A stretch of DNA of 64,000 nt from the IMG/VR virus record IMGVR_UViG_3300024346_000008, positions 1 to 64,000 of that record. One strand, 5' to 3'. Below the pieces are notes generated by a model that was not told the DNA's origin, did no database searches, and saw only the letters and a list, made by a program, of their open reading frames with translations. The DNA is from a virus. The translations under genes and the position numbers were made by a program. Each line of letters starts with the position of its first letter. Positions within the stretch are counted from its first letter, which is position 1. Below, one piece after another: positions 2,159 through 31,021 of the stretch.

Positions 2159-4408
2159 ATGTCTATCACGAAACAACACTCTAGTTACTGGCTTGACGAC
2201 GACCTGTTTGATGATATTGTAGACGATAAACCAAAAACAGATTTGCAGCGGATTACTCGCCTTAGCGCTGTCCGCCGTGGTATTGCAAATTTCGTATCCA
2301 TCCTAAGCGGTGAGAATGTACCCGTCCACTTTTCCAGTGGTAAGGATTCGTATACGGATGGTAAGCAGGTTATTATTTCTGCCGATGAAGATGTGGAAAA
2401 GTTCGATGCAATGGTAGGATTGGCGTTGCATGAGGGTAGTCATGTGTTGTTGTCCGATTTCACCCTGCTTCAGGCTCTGCAGAAGTCGGTGGAAAAGCCA
2501 CTCACCACGTATACTCAGCATCCCATGTGGATTACCGAAGCACGGGTAACTCAGGCCGCATCGGGAAATGTCTTTAAGGATATTCTACATCCGACAATTG
2601 CTAATTTGCTCCCAGAGTTTCCGGGTCAAACTGCATATGGGTATCTTGACCCAACGGCTTTGTACTGGGAAACGTCGATGAAGGTGCTGAATGATTTGCG
2701 GTTTATTATGAATATTTTGGAAGACCGTCGTATTGACAACTACGTGTATAATAACGCAGTTGGATATCGCCCATACTACAAGGCATTGTATAACAAGTAT
2801 TTTTATACAAAGGAAATGGGAAAGAATCTTCGGTTTAATCCCAAGTTCCGTGAACTTACGGCAGAAAATTACATCACCAGATTGTTGTATTGCATTCATC
2901 CTGCGGCCAATTGGGACGCCATGCCCGGTTTGCGTTCGCTGATTAATCTGATGGATTTGAATACGATTGAACGTGTGAGTCCGAAATACGATAAACAGAT
3001 TATGTATAATGGTACTCCACGTGCGGCATGGTTGACGGAACCTACGTATGAATCTATGCCCGTGTTGTGGCAGGAAGCAAATGTATTGTACGCACACATT
3101 CTAAAGTATGTGGGTATGGTAACATATGATGAATCGTCTGAGAAGCCGCCGGAAACTTCGATGGATAGTATTGCTCAAAAGAATTCGTCTGCACTGAGCG
3201 ACCTTCCAAATCTCGACGGGGCGCCTGGCATGGGTGACATGGAACCTGTTCCTGTTGAAAAGGATACAAAGGGGTCTGGGAAGAATAAGAAGGAAGTAGA
3301 TGGCACGTTTAATGAGAAAAGTGCTCTCAAAGAAATGGATGGTGCCAAAAAGGTAATGGACGGCAAGGTAAAGAAAAAGAAGTTGTCCAAGAGTGATGCT
3401 GCCGCAGTAACTGCCTTCGAAGAAGCAGATGCTAAGATGGTGGATATTACTGGAGAAGGTGTTCCGTTTGGTAAGTGTATGGTCACCAGAAAACTTACGA
3501 ATGAACTTATGGAACAAGATTGGTTTATCTTTAAGCGGTGGGGATGGAATCGTAATGATACCAATCCGTATGTTGAACAGTCAATTTCGGCAGGTAAGCG
3601 TATGGGACAGATTCTTGTCCATCGTTTGCAAGTTCGTAATGACCCACTGATTACGAAGCAGACTCGACTTCCGCAGGGTGGATTGGATAGACGATTGCTG
3701 GCACAGTTGGGTATGGACATTACCTCAGTATTCCAGAAGTCTCGCACGGATATTCATAAGCCTGCCATGTTGCACTTGACGCTGGATGCATCGGGTTCTA
3801 TGAGTGGTGGTAAGTGGAACAAGGTTCGGTCGGTTGCCATTGCCTTGGCTTATGTGGGTTCAAAGTTGCGGAATGTCGATACGGTCATTTCAATTCGTGG
3901 TGGAAATGATTTGCCTATCGTGTCGGTAGTCTATGATTCACGCCGTGACCAGTTTCCTAAGTTTGTTCAACATATGCGGATGCTAGACCCTGCGGGAGCA
4001 ACGCCGGAGGGGTTGTGTTTCAAGGCAACGATGGATTTGATTCTGGAATGCAAAGATACGCATGATGTATACTTCATTAACTTCAGTGATGGTGAACCGT
4101 CGTTTGGTTACAACAGTGATACCGCACTTGGAAAAGCTGGTAAGCATCGTGGATATAGAGAGTATTTTAGTTATGCTGGAGAGGTAGCAACCAAACATAC
4201 CCGTGCAATGGTACAGCAGTTGCGGGATGCAAATGTAAAAGTATTGAGTTATTTCATTACAGAAACATATAAGCATAGTTATAATGGCCCCAGTGTTGCA
4301 AAAACCGTATTCCAGAAAATGTATGGGGAAGACGCAGTTATGGTTAATGTGGAAAATGCGTCAGAGGTATTAAGAACCCTTAATTCCAGATTGCTGGTTA
4401 GGGGTTGA
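2159..4408 (+). CDS. CobT-like metallopeptidase-motif/VWA domain protein (partner of MoxR-type ATPase)
   Basis: HEGSH and NILEDRRID N-terminal motifs; MIDAS DASGSM, T and SDG in C-terminal VWA. Confidence 0.85.
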   Translation: MSITKQHSSYWLDDDLFDDIVDDKPKTDLQRITRLSAVRRGIANFVSILSGENVPVHFSSGKDSYTDGKQVIISADEDVEKFDAMVGLALHEGSHVLLSDFTLLQALQKSVEKPLTTYTQHPMWITEARVTQAASGNVFKDILHPTIANLLPEFPGQTAYGYLDPTALYWETSMKVLNDLRFIMNILEDRRIDNYVYNNAVGYRPYYKALYNKYFYTKEMGKNLRFNPKFRELTAENYITRLLYCIHPAANWDAMPGLRSLINLMDLNTIERVSPKYDKQIMYNGTPRAAWLTEPTYESMPVLWQEANVLYAHILKYVGMVTYDESSEKPPETSMDSIAQKNSSALSDLPNLDGAPGMGDMEPVPVEKDTKGSGKNKKEVDGTFNEKSALKEMDGAKKVMDGKVKKKKLSKSDAAAVTAFEEADAKMVDITGEGVPFGKCMVTRKLTNELMEQDWFIFKRWGWNRNDTNPYVEQSISAGKRMGQILVHRLQVRNDPLITKQTRLPQGGLDRRLLAQLGMDITSVFQKSRTDIHKPAMLHLTLDASGSMSGGKWNKVRSVAIALAYVGSKLRNVDTVISIRGGNDLPIVSVVYDSRRDQFPKFVQHMRMLDPAGATPEGLCFKATMDLILECKDTHDVYFINFSDGEPSFGYNSDTALGKAGKHRGYREYFSYAGEVATKHTRAMVQQLRDANVKVLSYFITETYKHSYNGPSVAKTVFQKMYGEDAVMVNVENASEVLRTLNSRLLVRG

Positions 4409-8040: not shown

Positions 8041-8111
8041 CTGATTATATGTAAACCAGTTGTTTGACATTCTTCTACTCTACGTATATACGTACACAAA
8101 AGGAGAATTAT

Positions 8112-24444: not shown

Positions 24445-24717
24445 ATGACCAAGATTGCTAAGACCGCCGCTGCTTCTGCTACCATCCGTAAGGCCGCCAC
24501 TCGTAAGGCACTCACCAAGGAGATTCGCGCTCTGGAACGCATCCGTGTCTCCATCGAAAAGGCCGCCGATGTGATTTCGGTGCACGGTGAGGATGTGACC
24601 GGCGATGCCGGAAACCAGATCGCTGACATGCTGTACAAGATGGGCGTGAGCGTGTCGGTGGTGAACGCAAGCATCAACGAAAAGGCGGGGTTCCTCGCCG
24701 CAACGTACATCAAGTAA
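24445..24717 (+). CDS. Ala/Lys-rich helical hypothetical protein
   Basis: AAGGA SD. Confidence 0.7.
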   Translation: MTKIAKTAAASATIRKAATRKALTKEIRALERIRVSIEKAADVISVHGEDVTGDAGNQIADMLYKMGVSVSVVNASINEKAGFLAATYIK

Positions 24718-24781
24718 CATCGTCGGCGGGTGGTATTATACGGAGTAGTGAATGCCGGTTGACCATCCGCTCGACAAATAC

Positions 24782-24854
24782 GCTCCGGTAGCTCAGTTGG
24801 TAGAGCAGTGGCCTTTTAAGCCATAGGTCGTGGGTTCGAGTCCCTCCCGGGGCA
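24782..24854 (+). tRNA. tRNA-Lys(TTT)
   Basis: cloverleaf; CT TTT AA. Confidence 0.9.
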
Positions 24855-24859
24855 CTGGC

Positions 24860-25280
24860 AGTTACCAATCTGCATTTAGCGCAACACCAGAATGCCATGC
24901 CCTAGTGGTGTGTATAACTGGACAAGCGGAATAATCAATAATTGGCGGGATGAGCAACCCCGATAAACGGCTCACACATATTTGGTTTAGTCAACGCGCT
25001 AGTGGATGGTAACATCCAAGTCACCTGCAAAGGTATTCCGTATTCCGACCTGAGATATAGCCAAAGCCGTACTATGATGGGCGGCTCAAGAATGCTTAGC
25101 TCTTGAAAGGTTACTCAGCAACGGCGTGTCCCATATAGTGGGCACGGACAACTAGACCACCAAACGGATCGCTTGCGAGGAACAACGGGTTAATCGCCGT
25201 CAAGTCTCGCCACCGGCAAGGTGCAAGAATGATAATCTTGAGCGTGAAGGCCCCTGCACCGCAATGGTCAGGAGCCGAGC
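24860..25280 (+). ncRNA. large (~420 nt) putative structured ncRNA downstream of tRNA-Lys
   Basis: no credible ORF; many helices and GNRA loops; terminator follows. Confidence 0.6.
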
Positions 25281-25311
25281 AATCCCCTCTATATTCCTAG
25301 AGGGGATTTTT
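25280..25311 (+). terminator. intrinsic terminator
   Basis: AATCCCCTCTA/TAGAGGGGATT followed by T run. Confidence 0.85.
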
Positions 25312-25431
25312 GCTGCCGCCGTGATAAAACATCCCGAAGAAACCCCGAAGATTGCCGAACATGAAGAAAACTTAATGAAGTATTTTCAGCTGGGCACTTC
25401 CATTCGGTCTATAATAGGGTTATTATTAAGT

Positions 25432-25635
25432 ATGCCCAATAACGATACGACTTCACGCATGATGACGGTTGCCGACCTTCGGGCCATCATCGCAGATCTT
25501 CCCGCCACCACGCAGTTGTGGGCGTACGACACGGCCCAGGGCACCTTCACGCCCGTCGAATTCCTCACGCATGACAAGCGGGCAAACGGCCTGAACTTCT
25601 GGATCAATACCGAAGAGAACCCGAACGGTTTGTAA
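25432..25635 (+). CDS. hypothetical protein (leaderless)
   Basis: MTVADLRAII.DLP motif. Confidence 0.65.
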   Translation: MPNNDTTSRMMTVADLRAIIADLPATTQLWAYDTAQGTFTPVEFLTHDKRANGLNFWINTEENPNGL

Positions 25636-25686
25636 CGATTTCAGTTTGCCACTTCCCTTTCGACCATTAATAGTGTATATTACAGT

Positions 25687-26004
25687 ATGATCAAAAACAC
25701 CAACAACAACAAACGAAACACCATGAGCATCGAAACGTATAACGGCTGGACCAACTACGAAACGTGGCGCATTCAGCTGGAAGTTATCGACGGCATGACG
25801 CTCGAAGATTTCGGCTTCGATTTGCACGAAGTCGATACGGACGATGTTGCCGATGTTGAACGGCTCGCCGGAACGCTCGAGATGTTCACCTGCGAGCTGA
25901 TCGAAGGACAGTCTAGTGGGTTTGCACTGGATCTCGCCCACAGTTTCCTCGCCCGAGTCGATTGGGCAGAGATCGCCGAACACCTTATTGCCGACGCACG
26001 GTAA
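25687..26004 (+). CDS. acidic hypothetical phage protein
   Basis: YNGWTNYETW...VDWAEIA pattern. Confidence 0.75.
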   Translation: MIKNTNNNKRNTMSIETYNGWTNYETWRIQLEVIDGMTLEDFGFDLHEVDTDDVADVERLAGTLEMFTCELIEGQSSGFALDLAHSFLARVDWAEIAEHLIADAR

Positions 26005-26014
26005 AGGAATCAAT

Positions 26015-26242
26015 ATGCTTTTCAATATGCTTTTAGTAGAACGCAAGTGCCCGTTTACTGGTACACTCAATACCATGCAGTTGCCGATGACTGCTGCTGA
26101 GTATAACCGTGCGTTTGCCAAATGGGAAGATGGTGCATTGATTCAGGTTGCTTTCCCGATGCTCAACGCCGAGCAGCGTGAGTTTGTCAAGACGGGCACA
26201 ACGCCTGAGATGTGGACTAAAATTTTTGGAGAGGATGAATAA
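26015..26242 (+). CDS. hypothetical phage protein
   Basis: LIQ.AFP.L.AEQREF.KTG pattern. Confidence 0.75.
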   Translation: MLFNMLLVERKCPFTGTLNTMQLPMTAAEYNRAFAKWEDGALIQVAFPMLNAEQREFVKTGTTPEMWTKIFGEDE

Positions 26243-26637
26243 ATGTATATTCTACTAGAGCTCATTGAAGGTGAACCAACGCAGTTGCAAGTTTTTCCTG
26301 CCGCATGGGTAGACGCAGCAAACGAAGCCTTCGACATGATTGCAGAGGAAAATCTTCTCACCGAACTGCATCCGGATGAGCTAAAAAACGAAATTGTCGG
26401 CACCTTGCGATTTGCTGGTGACGATGTATGCTCGGTTACCCTTTACTGGAAGGCTATCTAATGCAGTCACTGCGCAATGTACGCCTCACGGTTCGTTTTC
26501 TTTCTGGTCACATACTTGCCGGCATCGAACATACCAGCGAGATTGCCCATTGCTCGCCGAGTACGGTGCGTGACTTTCTTGCGCTCGTCGGTACCGTACG
26601 CAACGGCGTCGAATTTATTCGGGCAGAGGAATTCTAA
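26243..26637 (+). CDS. two small coupled ORFs (26243-26461; 26461-26637)
   Basis: GAGGA SD, TAATG overlap. Confidence 0.6.
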
Positions 26638-26821
26638 GATATTCCCTTCGGGGAATATGCCAGCTGCGTGATAAAACCCGATGATAAAACCGACCCGAAG
26701 GGCCCCCGAAGAGCGTGCGCCGGCGTTTGTAACGATTGTGTAACAATATCCAATTGTAACAGGCGTGTAACGGTGGTCGTTAGCCACTTCCCTTTGCCCT
26801 ATAATAAGGTTATTATTAAGT

Positions 26822-27040
26822 ATGATGAAAAACACGATGAAGTACTCAGAGAAGGTCCTGGTCGCCGCAGTCAAGAACTGCGCAGCACGTGCGCAGGACA
26901 GTTACAACGCCCTCGGCTCCGCCGACGCGTGTGATAACGATAACGAAGTCTGGGAGCGTTTCCTCGATGACGCCTGCAATATGGGCGCCCTGTCCAACGA
27001 TTGGGCCGCCGAGCTTACTCGCACCTACGGAGCAAACTAA
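26822..27040 (+). CDS. hypothetical protein (leaderless)
   Basis: ATG after TTCCCT promoter. Confidence 0.65.
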   Translation: MMKNTMKYSEKVLVAAVKNCAARAQDSYNALGSADACDNDNEVWERFLDDACNMGALSNDWAAELTRTYGAN

Positions 27041-27041
27041 T

Positions 27042-27749
27042 ATGATGTTTACCGATATGAATCCGAAGCTCATGAAGGGCCAAGCCTTTGGGTATCATTC
27101 TGCTGGACTGCACCTTGCTCCCGCCCGTATCAGCGGATATCAGGTCTGTGCCTCGGCGTCGACCGGATGCACGACGGCGTGCCTCTATACGTCGGGCAAA
27201 GGTGCAATGACTTATGTGCAGACGGCCCGTATTGCGAAGACGCAGCGGCTGTTCGAAGATGCCGATAACTTCCTGCGGGACATGGTGAAGGATATCGAAG
27301 CTACCGTGCGTAAGGCAGCACGTGCTCGACTGACTCCCGCTGTTCGTCTGAATCTGACCAGCGATGTGCGCTGGGAGAACATCGAAGTCGAAGTGCGTGG
27401 TGTCATGTATCCGAATCTGATGACTGCGTTTCCTACCGTGCAATTCTATGACTACACGAAGCATACGAATCGCAAGAACATTCCGGCTAACTATCACTTG
27501 ACTTTCAGCCGTAGCGAAAGCAACGATCATATGATTGCTGAAATGATCGAAAAAGGTTTTAATGTTGCCGTAGTGTTCGACACGAAGAAGGGTGCCGATC
27601 TTCCCGCAACGTGGAACGGCTATACCGTTATCGACGGCGATATCAGCGACCTGCGTTTCCTTGATCCGCGTGGCGTGATTGTCGGGTTGCGTGGGAAGGG
27701 CAAGGCCCGCAAGGGTGCCCATAACGGTTTCGTGATTTCCACGAAATAA
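27042..27749 (+). CDS. gp88-like Cys-motif protein (radical-SAM-like)
   Basis: C-x6-GC-x3-CL, VRLNLTSD, QFYDYTK, NYHLTFS, DGD.SDLRFLD. Confidence 0.75.
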   Translation: MMFTDMNPKLMKGQAFGYHSAGLHLAPARISGYQVCASASTGCTTACLYTSGKGAMTYVQTARIAKTQRLFEDADNFLRDMVKDIEATVRKAARARLTPAVRLNLTSDVRWENIEVEVRGVMYPNLMTAFPTVQFYDYTKHTNRKNIPANYHLTFSRSESNDHMIAEMIEKGFNVAVVFDTKKGADLPATWNGYTVIDGDISDLRFLDPRGVIVGLRGKGKARKGAHNGFVISTK

Positions 27750-27800
27750 TCGTTACAATTGGGCACTTGACAACGCCCTATTAATAGGTTATAATACAGT

Positions 27801-28667
27801 ATGATCAAAAACACCAAACAAAAGGAAAAAGACATGACCGTAGTTTTGAAGAAGCGTGGCCGTCCGAGCAAGGCCGATGTGGCAGCACGTAGTGTCAAGA
27901 GTGTGCCCGTCCGTCCAGACGCCGAGATCCTGACCGATCTTAAGGAACGGTTTAGTATTCTTTCGATTCTCACGAAGGGTGCCGTTGCGAAGAATGTTCG
28001 TGCGGTAACCGTCACGGGTGCCCCCGGCGTCGGCAAGTCCTATACCGTTGAGCAGATTCTTGGATCGGGCAATACGCCGCACGAGATTATCAAGGGTGCG
28101 ATCAGCGCGGTCAATCTGTACAAGACGGCCTACCGGATGCGCAAGGCTGGTTCGGTAATCGTCCTTGATGACGCCGACAGTCTCTTCAATGATGAAGATG
28201 CACTCAACATCTTGAAGGTGCTCTGCGATTCTTCCGAGACTCGCAAGGTGTCGTGGATGAAGGAAAGCAACGCACTCATCGCTGACGATGTTCCACAGTC
28301 GTTCGAATTCTGTGGTGCAATGATCTTTATTTCGAATCTTGACTTCCAGCGTTTCGTTGACGAAGGCAAGAACAAGTATGCGCAGCACTTCGAAGCACTG
28401 ATGTCTCGCAGTCTGTATCTTGATCTCCGTCTGCATTCCCGCAACGAGTTGGGTGTCTGGATCGAACACGTTGCGAGTGCTGGTAAAATCTTTGAACGGG
28501 AAGGACTGACGACTGCGCAGGGCAAGGCAGTGTTGTCGTTCCTGAAGAAGCACCGTGACGATCTGCGTGAGCTGTCGTTGCGTACGCTGTTGAAGGCAGC
28601 ACAGTTGGTCAAGACCAATACCAATTGGGAAAACATGGCACGAGTTCTTCTCCTGAAGACTCGATAA
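27801..28667 (+). CDS. AAA+ ATPase with N-terminal AT-hook
   Basis: GAPGVGKS, VIVLDD, FISN, ALMSR; KRGRPSK. Confidence 0.85.
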   Translation: MIKNTKQKEKDMTVVLKKRGRPSKADVAARSVKSVPVRPDAEILTDLKERFSILSILTKGAVAKNVRAVTVTGAPGVGKSYTVEQILGSGNTPHEIIKGAISAVNLYKTAYRMRKAGSVIVLDDADSLFNDEDALNILKVLCDSSETRKVSWMKESNALIADDVPQSFEFCGAMIFISNLDFQRFVDEGKNKYAQHFEALMSRSLYLDLRLHSRNELGVWIEHVASAGKIFEREGLTTAQGKAVLSFLKKHRDDLRELSLRTLLKAAQLVKTNTNWENMARVLLLKTR

Positions 28668-29087: not shown

Positions 29088-29458
29088 TGGCCGGACCAGG
29101 CTGGATCAGTTTGAATAAGCGTCTTTCCCCAAAAACTTCTCCCATCCCTTCCACACACATGCACACTGACGAATACGCCACCCCAACTTTCACTGCTGCC
29201 TTGCCGCAGTCATTTGGAAATGATTTTAATTTGATTCGTGCCGTTGAAGAATATGGCCCACAGCGTGTGGAGTCTATCCGAAAGGAACTTGCGCAGATGA
29301 CTGATCGGATTACATTGCTCTCTAAGGAAATGGACACCCTGCAGCGGCTCATTGCCGTCACCAAGCCTAGTGATCAGGACATGGCGTGGGCAATGGCCGA
29401 AGGGCATCCAGATGCCTATACTAGCGATGACTTCCCTCGCGCGGTCTGGCCGGTGTAA
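29087..29458 (+). CDS. coiled-coil hypothetical protein
   Basis: AAGGAG SD; coupled ORF. Confidence 0.6.
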   Translation: MAGPGWISLNKRLSPKTSPIPSTHMHTDEYATPTFTAALPQSFGNDFNLIRAVEEYGPQRVESIRKELAQMTDRITLLSKEMDTLQRLIAVTKPSDQDMAWAMAEGHPDAYTSDDFPRAVWPV

Positions 29459-29647
29459 ACTACCGGCGGGGAATATGCCTCCCCGCCGTGATAAAACAGT
29501 GATAAAACCGACCCGAAGAAAACCCGAAGAGCGCCGCGATTGTAACAATTGTGTAACGATTTCAGGCGGCAACATGAAGAAAACTTAATCAAATATCTTT
29601 GGCTAGGCACTTCCCTTTGCCCTATAATAGGTTTATATTACAGTATA

Positions 29648-29990
29648 AGGTTAATGAGTCAGTTAACCGATGGTTGTTTGACAATCGAAGCAGGTTGGTC
29701 GCCCCGCAGGGTCGGGGCCGCAGGATCCGTAGGCGAATCGGAAATGTCACGCCAAGTACGCACTTGAGATGCGCACCACGCCTACTAGACGGCCGTCGGC
29801 ACATTATAGGATAGGAAACGATCACTTCAAGCTTCGACCTTCGGGCAACAGCTTAGTGACGTAGAGCCAGAGAGAGCCCCGAAACGCGCAGTACTGCGGG
29901 TGAGCATGTCAACGGACGGTATCTATCCTCAATGTTTCACACTATGCAAAAGTCATTCCGATTTTTGCTTTCACTCCTATTAGGAGCTTT
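29648..29990 (+). ncRNA. large (~330 nt) multi-pseudoknot ncRNA or regulatory leader
   Basis: starts at promoter 29611; several 7-bp long-range helices; terminator-like hairpin and SD hairpin at 3' end. Confidence 0.6.
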
Positions 29991-29993
29991 ACC

Positions 29994-31021
29994 ATGACGA
30001 AAAATCGTTATGTGGTTGTCACCGGATTTGCGAATCCGTTTTTTCAGTCCAACACTCGCATGCCGAGTGAACGCGTGCAGGACGCGTGGACGACCGATAA
30101 CCGCGCTGAAGCGGATCGGGTTGCAAACGCCCTCAACGGGCGGACCCTGAACCAGTGGATGCCCGTCTATCGGGTTGAAACGGTTTCCTCATTCATGGAG
30201 TAATATGATTACCCGCAACGATATTGGCAAGCAGTTTTTCTCTACCTGCATCGGCACTGGCTTTGGTCGCATCGTGACTCTCAATGCCATCGATACGGTC
30301 GGCGATGTACTGATGGCAAACGTGTTCGATGCAACCATGCCGAATCCGTCGAACATTCCTGGCTTGGGCTCGTATTGGCTCAACGCAAACAACCTTATGC
30401 CTGCACGGGGTTAACATGATTAAACGAATACGTGCCCGCAAGGCGTATTCATCCCTCGGGTTTTCCCGCTGGGGCATTTTCACGAACGTATTACACAAGC
30501 AGGATCGCAAGACGCTTGGTTGCTGGTACTTCAACGTGCACACTCCGTGGACGATCTTAGAAGTTATCGGCCAATAACACACACAGGAGATATTATGTAC
30601 GACGATAATTTCGGCCATTGGAACGACGGCGATGAAGATAACCGCCAGTTCTACCGGCAGGTGCAACGTGCTTCCGTATCGAAGCGTTGCAAGGGTTGTG
30701 GACGCACGGTGCGTATCATGCCGCAGTACGCCTACTGTAACGGTTGCGCCGACGCCATTGAACGTGGCGGCGAGTTTTAATCGTATACACCTGTTTTTCC
30801 TTTCCTCCCTATAGGTACTTACTATGACTAAATCAAACGAAACCAGCACTGCCACCTTCGCCACCCGTGGCGAAGCCCTTGTCTACCGCGACAGCATTGC
30901 GCTGTTGGCCACCATGCACCCCGCCCGTGGTCTGCGCACCTGCGGCCCGTGGGAGTCCGGCCTCCCTGGCACGCCAAACGCGTGGGCCGTCGCCGTCGCA
31001 TGGGACGGGCAACCGTTCTAG
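29994..31021 (+). CDS. five small ORFs (29994-30203, 30205-30414, 30416-30577, 30595-30780 Zn ribbon, 30824-31021)
   Basis: SDs, tight packing; CKGC...CNGC in the fourth. Confidence 0.65.

What the first reader, a model, noticed from the sequence alone, without database searches (positions are those of the whole stretch)
29648..29993. 330-nt multi-pseudoknot RNA with a switch-like 3' end
Helices CCCGCAG/CTGCGGG (29703/29900), TCGGGGC/GCCCCGA, GTAGGCG/CGCCTAC, AGGATAG/CTATCCT and CCGTC/GACGG cross one another. AATCGGAAATG (29736) can pair with CATTCCGATT (29954), which excludes a 9-bp terminator-like hairpin GCAAAAGTC/GATTTTTGC. A CTCCTA/TAGGAG hairpin then hides the SD of the next gene. A hairpin and a boxA-like GTTGTTTGACAAT open the transcript. 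It is either a novel large ncRNA or an attenuator for the last five early genes.
Basis: partly seen in the sequence, partly recalled or inferred. Interest (0 to 1): 0.7.

Follow-up and report, generated by a model that had tools for sequence, protein, structure and literature searches.

The report
Modular untranslated leader of phage operon
The 346 bases are a real, conserved, untranslated leader RNA in front of a small early phage gene, but they are a string of separately folding hairpin modules that related phages gain, lose and duplicate, not one large knotted RNA or a terminator switch.

Summary
The fold is no better than shuffled sequence (z -0.76), and 7-nt complements are only marginally enriched (7 against 3.0, p about 0.07).

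Sixteen related metagenomic loci show four modules. A (29647-29726) is always present. B (29727-29802) occurs in 0, 1 or 2 copies. C (29803-29937) is in only three lineages. D (29938-29993) is always present.

The long-range "pseudoknot" helices join A or B to C. A and B stay nearly unchanged where C is absent. The proposed switch pairing is broken without compensation in relatives.

Local elements hold up:
- A has a 5'-terminal hairpin, an invariant 23-nt single-stranded box and a GC hairpin.
- D is a repeated cassette placed before several small genes. Its first hairpin covaries strongly (7 of 9 pairs). Its second hairpin is an invariant anti-SD/SD pairing.

The modules are more conserved than synonymous sites of the adjacent gene.

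Best reading: a modular cis-acting leader of the one early unit here that is not leaderless. Earlier scan notes describe similar boxA-plus-leader layouts in other phages, but not this sequence. Interest is moderate.

The parts
29611..29639 (+). Early promoter: -35 TTCCCT (29611-29616), 17-nt spacer, -10 TATATT (29634-29639). The inferred start is about 29647.
   Evidence: The promoter cassette 29499-29647 is repeated at least 10 times in the 164-kb genome. The -10/discriminator core recurs 10 times on the + strand between 17.7 and 29.7 kb. At 9 of those sites it is followed directly by ATG (leaderless genes); only this copy has AAG instead. The start site is inferred, not mapped.
29647..29726 (+). 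Module A, the constant 5' part of the leader. It holds a 5'-terminal hairpin (29649-29654 with 29663-29668), an invariant single-stranded box (29673-29695, boxA-like at its 5' end) and a GC hairpin (29701-29706 with 29713-29718).
   Evidence: A is present in every relative that reaches this far (L012, L023, L024, L026, L028, L029; partial in L020-22), at 88-100% identity. Both hairpins are 100% paired in 8 variants, and the only stem changes are G-C to G-U or U-A to U-G, which pair only on the + strand RNA. The 17-nt box core is unique in the window and exact in 11 related loci.
29727..29802 (+). Module B, an optional 74-76-nt unit present in 0, 1 or 2 tandem copies in relatives. It has two small hairpins (29732-29735 with 29750-29753; 29759-29762 with 29770-29773, the latter with an invariant 7-nt loop).
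Evidence: Six variants average 95% identity. The local hairpins are 100% paired, each with one double-sided compensatory change. The fold energy is not better than shuffles, z +0.58.
29803..29937 (+). Module C, an optional insert of about 130 nt. The closing stem P1 pairs 29808-29814 with 29923-29929. Stem P2 pairs 29819-29825 with 29856-29861 and is capped by a variable hairpin (UUCG tip in the window). A second variable hairpin lies near 29880-29900, and long invariant strands connect these parts.
   Evidence: C is found only in the window, L025 and L023/L026. It is flanked by imperfect direct repeats at 29800-29809 and 29938-29946. The 78 core columns are 78/78 identical between the window and L025, although ORF69 third codon positions are 82.9% identical. 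L023 has lost one base from each strand of P1. P2 is the MFE stem in two of three variants, with unrelated caps. No substitution covariation is available.
29938..29993 (+). Module D, a pre-gene cassette. It consists of an AU-rich CACUAU box (29938-29945), hairpin 1 (29946-29954 with 29960-29968, loop AUUCC), and an anti-SD/SD hairpin (29974-29978 with 29982-29986), ending 7 nt before the ATG.
   Evidence: There are 17 distinct copies in front of three different small genes in relatives. In hairpin 1, 7 of 9 pairs change on both sides, no shuffle in 500 does as well, and 89% of cells are paired against 26-45% in slid registers. The anti-SD/SD hairpin is 94.7% paired and invariant. The two-hairpin fold is the MFE with z -2.6 to -3.9. 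The scan calls no terminator here.
29994..30203 (+). ORF69, the 69-aa gene served by the leader. The next gene starts at 30206, directly after its stop codon (30201-30203).
   Evidence: Twelve protein clusters are 76-96% identical. Third codon positions are the least conserved, at 71-94%, so it is a real gene. It has no PHROG family. In L013-15 a homologue sits leaderless directly behind a promoter. In L009 the whole unit 29648-30205 is absent and the promoter drives the homologue of the 30206 gene directly.

Best explanation
The region is the untranslated 5' leader of the only early transcription unit here that is not leaderless. It is a chain of four independently folding modules, not one integrated fold.

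Shown:
- Relatives carry A+D, A+B+D, A+B+B+D or A+B+B+C+D.
- Each module keeps its own local hairpins.
- Module sequences are more conserved than synonymous sites of the adjacent gene.
- D is a repeated cassette in which a covarying hairpin with a fixed AUUC loop is followed by a 16S-tail-like anti-SD that pairs with the SD.

Inferred mechanism:
- Transcription starts at about 29647.
- The 5'-terminal hairpin protects the RNA end.
- The invariant single-stranded box in A recruits a factor that keeps polymerase elongating through about 350 nt of untranslated RNA. This would be Nus-type (boxA-like) or put-like anti-termination or anti-Rho, and I give this sub-claim roughly 0.2.
- D sets translation of the following gene by occluding its SD, and it probably marks a processing or stabilising site at the AU-rich box just 5' of hairpin 1.
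- B and C are optional accessory RNA modules whose own function is unknown. They are exchanged by recombination at short shared boundary repeats.
For: Mosaic structure: blastn and sequence read-outs of 16 loci. L009 lacks the whole unit.

Non-coding: the 37-codon frame at 29654 has a stop at codon 4 in L012 and L023, and B and C differ by 1- and 2-nt indels.

Local structure: D hairpin 1 has 7 of 9 pairs with double-sided changes and 0/500 shuffles as good. The D folds have z -2.6 to -3.9. The A hairpins are 100% paired with strand-specific wobble changes. The B hairpins have one compensatory change each.

Constraint: A is 100% identical between the window and L024, and the C core is 78/78 identical between the window and L025, while ORF69 third positions are 82.9% identical in both pairs.

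This promoter copy is the odd one out: 9 sister copies run straight into ATG.

Short contigs identical to 29661-29811 and 29804-29982 occur in two metatranscriptome libraries from different studies. Depth is low and DNA carry-over is not excluded.
Against: - No transcript ends, processing sites or protein partners have been measured, and the host is unknown.
- Module identity could partly reflect recent lateral exchange rather than selection.
- B folds no better than shuffled sequence.
- C has only three sequences and no substitution covariation.
- The boxA reading fails at one position. The box matches the gamma-proteobacterial consensus GYTCTTTAANA (PMC5725501) at 9 of 11 positions, with G where C4 is expected. 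The rrn boxA sequences I read in one actinobacterial and one cyanobacterial genome also keep that C.
- None of 121 exact genomic matches of the 14-mer lies next to 16S.
Confidence: 0.6

Rival explanations
1. One reading: one 330-nt ncRNA held together by crossing long-range helices (multi-pseudoknot).
For: All helix strands exist as perfect complements in the window. In the three C-bearing sequences the 29793/29915 and 29808/29923 pairs never break. 7-mers are mildly enriched, p 0.07.
Against: At least seven lineages lack C yet keep the A and B partner strands at 92-100% identity. Positions 29703-29718 form their own conserved local hairpin. In L023 the 29894 strand carries an uncompensated change, and in L025 both the 29876 and 29894 partners are replaced. 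MFE z is -0.76. The invariant pairs are uninformative.
Confidence: 0.04
2. One reading: a transcription attenuator in which pairing of 29736-29746 with 29954-29963 prevents a terminator hairpin (29946-29968) and so gates the downstream genes.
For: In the window the two segments can form 10 pairs with one bulge, and this excludes the hairpin. The hairpin is stable and conserved.
Against: - The hairpin is followed by UUUCAC, UUCCAC or CUCUCAC, never a U-tract, and the scan does not call it.
- The same hairpin recurs between genes, and in A+D leaders that have no B partner at all.
- The anti-terminator helix is 76.7% paired, with 5 of 10 pairs broken and none compensated.
- L020 has a B identical to the window's but a D hairpin of a different sequence.
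Confidence: 0.04
3. B and/or C are the real products. They would be small stable RNAs cut out of the early transcript (for example at the AU-rich box before D hairpin 1) that act in trans as decoys, sponges, or a small aptamer or ribozyme. The downstream gene would simply be co-transcribed.
For: The C core and B are more conserved than coding third positions. C shows invariant strands between hairpins whose caps are replaced, as functional RNAs do. B occurs in tandem. RNA-library contigs cover exactly these parts. tRNA genes lie in the same early blocks of this phage and its relatives.
Against: Both modules are dispensable in many lineages. B has no thermodynamic signal. There is no Rfam family. 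There is no second copy or clear target complement in the 164-kb genome. No processing data exist.
Confidence: 0.17
4. The modules are largely functionless recombination debris between regulatory cassettes. On this reading their apparent conservation reflects recent exchange among closely related phages, and only the promoter and the D cassette matter.
For: Presence and absence is patchy, with boundaries at short repeats. B has z +0.58. The overall fold is not better than shuffles. L013-15 express an ORF69 homologue with no leader at all.
Against: A is retained in every leader-bearing lineage, with a 23-nt invariant block. All stem changes in A preserve pairing. B has two compensatory changes. 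In C the only diverged stretches are hairpin caps, while 78 other columns are identical at about 17% synonymous divergence.
Confidence: 0.12

Closest known systems
PeSL (promoter-early stem-loop) mobile regulatory cassettes of T4-type phages (Arbiol et al. 2010, PMC2839356)
   Same: Strong sigma70-like early promoters plus stem-loops are repeated through a block of small non-essential early genes. Insertions, deletions and replacements between related phages occur at these cassettes.
   Different: Here the repeated pre-gene unit D is not a promoter-terminator pair. It is a hairpin plus an SD-occluding hairpin. The leader also carries longer accessory modules (B, C) and a constant 5' module (A). 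Terminator activity and mini-circles were not tested.
rrn-operon and lambdoid nut anti-termination leaders (boxB hairpin, boxA, Nus factors; PMC5725501, PMC3177189)
   Same: A promoter-proximal hairpin is followed by a conserved single-stranded U-rich box ending in ACAA, at the head of a long untranslated structured RNA. Rho would otherwise be expected to act on such an RNA.
   Different: The box matches GYTCTTTAANA at only 9 of 11 positions and has G at the C4 position. It was not found next to 16S in 121 genomic matches. The host and its boxA are unknown, and there is no boxC.
SD-sequestering hairpins on phage and bacterial mRNAs, such as T4 early transcripts of late genes and RNA thermometers (named from my own knowledge)
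   Same: An upstream CUCC-containing strand pairs with the GGAG of the SD a few bases before the start codon. This pairing is conserved in all 15 distinct cassette copies aligned.
   Different: The element is serial, one per gene. It is always preceded by a covarying hairpin with a fixed AUUC loop. What opens it is unknown.
Large ornate phage-associated RNAs (GOLLD, ROOL, HEARO) and riboswitch or attenuator leaders
   Same: An ORF-free, GC-richer, hairpin-dense stretch in a phage, near tRNA genes.
   Different: No Rfam family reaches E < 0.2 anywhere in the leader or in six relatives. There is no conserved long-range helix, no terminator, and the modules are dispensable.

Membership tests
Any Rfam 15 family (including GOLLD, ROOL, riboswitches, ribozymes, tRNA-like) | Covariance-model score at or near the family's gathering threshold | tested here: not met
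   At gathering threshold the window yields only tRNAs elsewhere. With permissive E up to 10 on 29400-30100, the best hit is 17 bits against a threshold of 65. Six relatives at E up to 1 give nothing in the leader except a 27-bit antisense RAGATH-26 chance hit (threshold 86). ARAGORN finds nothing.
Intrinsic-terminator attenuator | GC-rich hairpin followed directly by a U-tract | tested here: not met
   No terminator is called at 29946-29975. The tails in 17 cassette copies are UUUCAC, UUCCAC, CUCUCAC or GUUCAC.
Intrinsic-terminator attenuator | Conserved mutually exclusive anti-terminator pairing | tested here: not met
   The helix 29736-29746 with 29954-29963 is 76.7% paired, with 5 of 10 pairs broken and 0 compensated. 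Leaders without B keep the hairpin.
boxA (NusB/NusE site) anti-termination leader | Match to the boxA consensus, including the critical C4 | tested here: not met
   The match to GYTCTTTAANA is 9 of 11, with G at C4 and G at A8. The consensus and the C4T/T6C loss of function are from PMC5725501. The consensus is gamma-proteobacterial and the host is unknown, so this lowers the claim but does not exclude it.
boxA (NusB/NusE site) anti-termination leader | Same sequence as the host's rrn leader or spacer boxA | tested here: inconclusive
   The host is unknown. None of 121 exact 14-mer matches in GTDB genomes lies within 1.5 kb upstream of a 16S start or within 2.5 kb downstream of a 16S 3' end. 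The rrn boxes read in one Actinomycetota MAG and one Aliinostoc genome differ from the phage box.
boxA (NusB/NusE site) anti-termination leader | Promoter-proximal, single-stranded, conserved, ahead of long untranslated RNA | tested here: met
   The box lies 26-49 nt from the inferred start, between two hairpins. It is invariant in 9 aligned leaders and present (one base changed) in the otherwise different L010 leader.
PeSL-like mobile regulatory cassette | Repeated promoter and stem-loop units at the boundaries of indels between related phages | tested here: met
   The promoter cassette is repeated at least 10 times and the D cassette has 17 copies. Gene and module gains and losses occur at these units.
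PeSL-like mobile regulatory cassette | The stem-loop acts as a transcription terminator | not testable with these tools
   There is no U-tract. Function would need in vivo or in vitro transcription assays.
SD-occluding translational control hairpin | Anti-SD strand pairs with the SD next to the start codon, and the pairing is conserved | tested here: met
   Five pairs are 94.7% paired in 15 distinct copies. The hairpin is present in the MFE of four cassettes.
Protein-coding small ORF | Open frame conserved among relatives, with indels in multiples of three | tested here: not met
   The frame from 29654 stops at codon 4 in L012 and L023. The frame from 29647 shifts because of a 1-nt deletion. 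B has two 1-nt deletions in L012, and C has 1- and 2-nt indels.

The most novel reading that the evidence does not exclude
Modules B and C, and perhaps the fixed-loop hairpin of D, are undescribed self-contained RNA elements. Candidates include a binding platform or decoy for a host or phage RNA-binding protein or nuclease, or a small aptamer or ribozyme built on C's three-way junction. Freshwater phages would plug them in and out of an early leader as cassettes, so the leader would be a carrier of portable functional RNAs rather than a mere 5' UTR.
Probability: 0.15. Interest if true: 0.7.

Novelty: new variant of a known kind. Interest (0 to 1): 0.4.

Why it matters
The case shows how an apparently ornate RNA dissolves into portable parts once relatives are compared. 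It also identifies specific testable parts.

- A is a constant 5' module with an invariant box. It is a candidate anti-termination or factor-loading site in a phage whose other early genes avoid the problem by being leaderless.
- D is a serial pre-gene cassette that couples a covarying fixed-loop hairpin to SD occlusion.
- B and C are two optional modules conserved more tightly than the neighbouring gene's silent sites.

These elements are handles for studying early gene control and cassette exchange in uncultured freshwater jumbo-like phages. None of this overturns known principles.

Tried and rejected
- Rfam at gathering and permissive thresholds on the window and six relatives: nothing.
- ARAGORN: no tRNA or tmRNA. 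A manual cloverleaf for the 76-nt module B does not fit.
- blastn of the region against INPHARED phages: no match.
- IMG/VR scans with flanking proteins gave one relative, L009, which lacks the unit.
- IMG/VR pattern scans for C, B, the A box and the D cassette gave nothing or unrelated coding hits.
- The metagenome pattern scan for B gave one extra locus, L026, a near-duplicate of L023.
- The hammerhead idea for C (GAAA, then a stem closed by A-U, then UA) was rejected because no CUGANGA strand is present.
- The box as a -35 element of a second promoter was rejected because no -10 follows at 16-18 nt.
- Literature word searches for the box sequence returned only unrelated primers.
- The 14-mer of the box in GTDB genomes gave random coding contexts, none beside 16S. 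Five matches in one Aliinostoc genome are not at its rrn operons.
- A search of the phage's own genome for further copies or complements of each module gave only chance-level short matches. The best was 19 of 21 nt at 144865-144885, E 0.14.
- Parts of the 1-kb stretch without cover in the RNA-library contigs are not interpreted.

Full report
SETTING. The window is the first 64 kb of a 163.9-kb IMG/VR phage record. It carries about 19 tRNA genes and a GC-richer block of small early genes on the + strand. The finding lies between a 123-codon ORF ending at 29458 and a 69-codon ORF (ORF69, 29994-30203). The first 190 nt of this gap (29460-29647) are a promoter cassette that recurs at least ten times in the genome. 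The part named in the finding (29648-29993) is unique in the genome.

The promoter has a -35 at 29611 and a -10 at 29634-29639. The same -10/discriminator core occurs at nine other + strand sites between 17.7 and 27.8 kb, and each runs straight into ATG, giving leaderless genes. The copy at 29634 is the only one followed by AAG and a long untranslated stretch. The transcript start near 29647 is therefore inferred by analogy, not measured.

THE OBSERVATION. There are seven perfect 7-nt complements against 2.96 +/- 2.1 in dinucleotide shuffles (fraction at least as high 0.074) and one 8-mer against 0.67. The minimum free energy of the 346 nt is -105 kcal/mol against -101.2 +/- 5.0 for shuffles, z -0.76. 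Rfam gives nothing at gathering or permissive thresholds, and ARAGORN finds no tRNA or tmRNA.

RELATIVES. No cultured phage matches. ORF69 has twelve homologous protein clusters at 76-96% identity in lake, river and estuary metagenomes. I fetched their contigs plus one more locus by a DNA pattern.

Comparison with the window splits the leader into four modules:
- A = 29647-29726
- B = 29727-29802
- C = 29803-29937
- D = 29938-29993

The combinations seen are:
- A+D in L024 and L029
- A+B+D in L012, L020 and L021/22
- a different 5' part plus B+D in L010/11
- A+B+B+D in L028
- A+B+B+C+D in L023/L026
- B+C+D in L025, where the contig begins inside the leader

In L013-15 an ORF69 homologue sits leaderless directly behind a promoter. 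In L016/17 it follows another gene. In L009 the whole unit 29648-30205 is missing, and the promoter drives the homologue of the window's 30206 gene as a leaderless mRNA.

CONSEQUENCE FOR THE PROPOSED FOLD. Three of the five crossing helices have their 3' strand in C (29703/29894, 29712/29876, 29793/29915), and both strands of a fourth (29808/29923) lie within C. At least seven lineages have no C. Even so, their A is 91-100% and their B 92-100% identical to the window.

The two A strands pair with each other locally. The GC hairpin 29701-29718 is 100% paired in eight variants. In L023 the 29894 strand has an uncompensated change, and in L025 both C-side partners are replaced.

The proposed switch (29736-29746 with 29954-29963) is 76.7% paired in the three complete sequences, with five of ten pairs broken and none compensated. 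L020 has a B identical to the window's but a D hairpin of a different sequence.

The "terminator-like" hairpin has no U-tract in any of 17 copies and is not called by the terminator scan. The single large pseudoknotted RNA and the attenuator are therefore both unsupported.

WHAT IS SUPPORTED

Module D is a cassette that in relatives precedes three different small genes (67, 75 and 69 codons). There are 17 distinct copies. Its parts, in order, are an AU-rich CACUAU-type box, hairpin 1, a short U/C spacer, and a hairpin in which a CACUCC strand resembling the 3' tail of 16S rRNA pairs with the GGAG of the SD 7 nt before the ATG.
- On an alignment of 15 distinct copies, hairpin 1 has 7 of 9 pairs with changes on both sides. 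No shuffle in 500 reaches the observed values. In the given register 89% of cells pair, against 26-45% in slid registers. The loop keeps AUUC.
- Several pairs are G-U, so the constraint acts on the + strand RNA.
- The SD hairpin is invariant and 94.7% paired.
- The two-hairpin fold is the MFE in four cassettes, with z -2.6 to -3.9.

Module A keeps a hairpin at the very 5' end and the GC hairpin. Both are 100% paired, and the three variable stem positions are all wobble-preserving. Between the hairpins lies a 23-nt block (29673-29695) invariant in nine leaders. Its core is also present, with one change, in the otherwise unrelated L010 leader.

Module B is 74-76 nt and occurs singly or in tandem. 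Two small hairpins are each supported by one double-sided change and are 100% paired. B is not more stable than shuffles.

Module C is bounded by imperfect direct repeats. Its closing stem P1 has lost one base from each strand in L023. Stem P2 carries unrelated caps in the three variants, one with a UUCG tip. A second variable hairpin follows, and long invariant strands lie between these parts. With three sequences there is no substitution covariation.

CODING IS EXCLUDED. The only near-5' AUG frame (29654) stops at codon 4 in L012 and L023. The frame from 29647 is shifted by a 1-nt deletion. B and C differ by 1- and 2-nt indels.

CONSTRAINT. ORF69 third codon positions are 71-94% identical between lineages, typically about 80%. 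A is 88-100% identical and B 87-100%. The 78 core columns of C are 74-78 of 78 identical. The window and L024 have identical A, and the window and L025 have identical C cores, while third positions are 82.9% identical in both pairs. Recent exchange of modules could contribute to this identity. Within C, however, the only diverged stretches are hairpin caps.

EXPRESSION. Two metatranscriptome libraries from different studies each contain a short contig identical to part of the leader (29661-29811 and 29804-29982). Two more carry relatives' D+ORF69. Depth is 2-3, and DNA carry-over cannot be excluded, so this is a weak hint only.

THE boxA IDEA. The box sits where a nut- or rrn-type boxA would sit: after a promoter-proximal hairpin and ahead of long untranslated RNA. 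It matches the gamma-proteobacterial consensus GYTCTTTAANA at 9 of 11 positions. It has G at the C4 position, which was mutated in the loss-of-function C4T/T6C mutant (PMC5725501). The structural basis of boxA recognition is in PMC3177189.

A 14-mer from the box gave more than 120 genomic matches, none beside a 16S gene. The rrn boxes I read in one Actinomycetota MAG and one Aliinostoc genome keep the C and differ from the phage box. The host is unknown, so this stays a lead. I give it about 0.2. My recollection that mycobacterial rrn boxA has G at this position could not be checked here.

MECHANISM PROPOSED
Shown:
- a modular untranslated leader
- conserved local hairpins
- SD occlusion in a serial cassette

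Inferred:
- The 5' hairpin stabilises the RNA.
- The invariant box loads a factor that protects elongation through untranslated RNA.
- D tunes translation and probably marks a processing or stabilising point.
- B and C are optional accessory RNAs exchanged at short boundary repeats. [quoted passage not shown]

RELATION TO EARLIER SCAN NOTES. Follow-up notes on other phages describe boxA behind early promoters driving structured leaders, and portable pre-gene leaders with PeSL as the closest known. They concern other DNA and are unverified here.

VERDICT. The object is a new variant of a known kind, namely modular regulatory RNA cassettes in phage early regions. Interest is moderate at 0.4. The most novel surviving reading is that B, C and the fixed-loop hairpin are portable functional RNAs (probability about 0.15).

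Noticed in passing
window 17727-27814 (+), e.g. 21327, 21730, 21961, 23344, 24053, 24262, 25676, 27790: Nine copies of the early promoter core are followed directly by ATG, 0-2 nt after the conserved ACAGTAT. Most early genes of this phage therefore appear to be leaderless. The unit studied here is the exception.
   Followed up: partly
L024:172-938, L023:828-1623, L012:1294-1907, L029:281-755: In relatives, ORF69 is the last of two or three small genes (67, 75 and 69 codons), each preceded by its own D cassette. The 75- and 69-codon genes share their first codons and upstream cassette at about 72% DNA identity, which suggests a duplicated gene-plus-cassette unit.
   Followed up: partly
window 29800-29809 and 29938-29946; L010:1852-1860: Module C is flanked by imperfect 9-10-nt direct repeats of the CACAYTAT type. 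The same box precedes D hairpin 1 in many cassettes, so it looks like the recombination joint for module exchange. It may also be an AU-rich cleavage site.
   Followed up: partly
L016:2100-2200; L010:3945-4149; L025:1262-1335: tRNA genes are interspersed with the small early genes near ORF69 homologues in relatives, as in the window (tRNA at 24782-24854).
   Followed up: no
genome C1:144865-144885 (-), outside the window: This is a 19-of-21-nt complement to A positions 29686-29706, with E 0.14 in the 164-kb genome. It is at chance level and no target was examined.
   Followed up: no
window 8059-8095 (+): A second exact GTTGTTTGACA word here is the -35 region of a TTGACA-17-TATATA promoter-like site inside the tRNA block. 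It warns that the box contains a perfect -35 hexamer.
   Followed up: partly
window 2159-4408 (+): The 749-aa protein has only about 30% identical relatives among cultured phages (Microcystis phage Mel-JY01 and an uncultured 484-kb phage). The phage is therefore far from any cultured reference, and the host remains unknown.
   Followed up: no
L012:1575-1674: A run of N (masked or scaffold gap) interrupts the second D cassette of this relative, so that copy was left out of the alignments.
   Followed up: no
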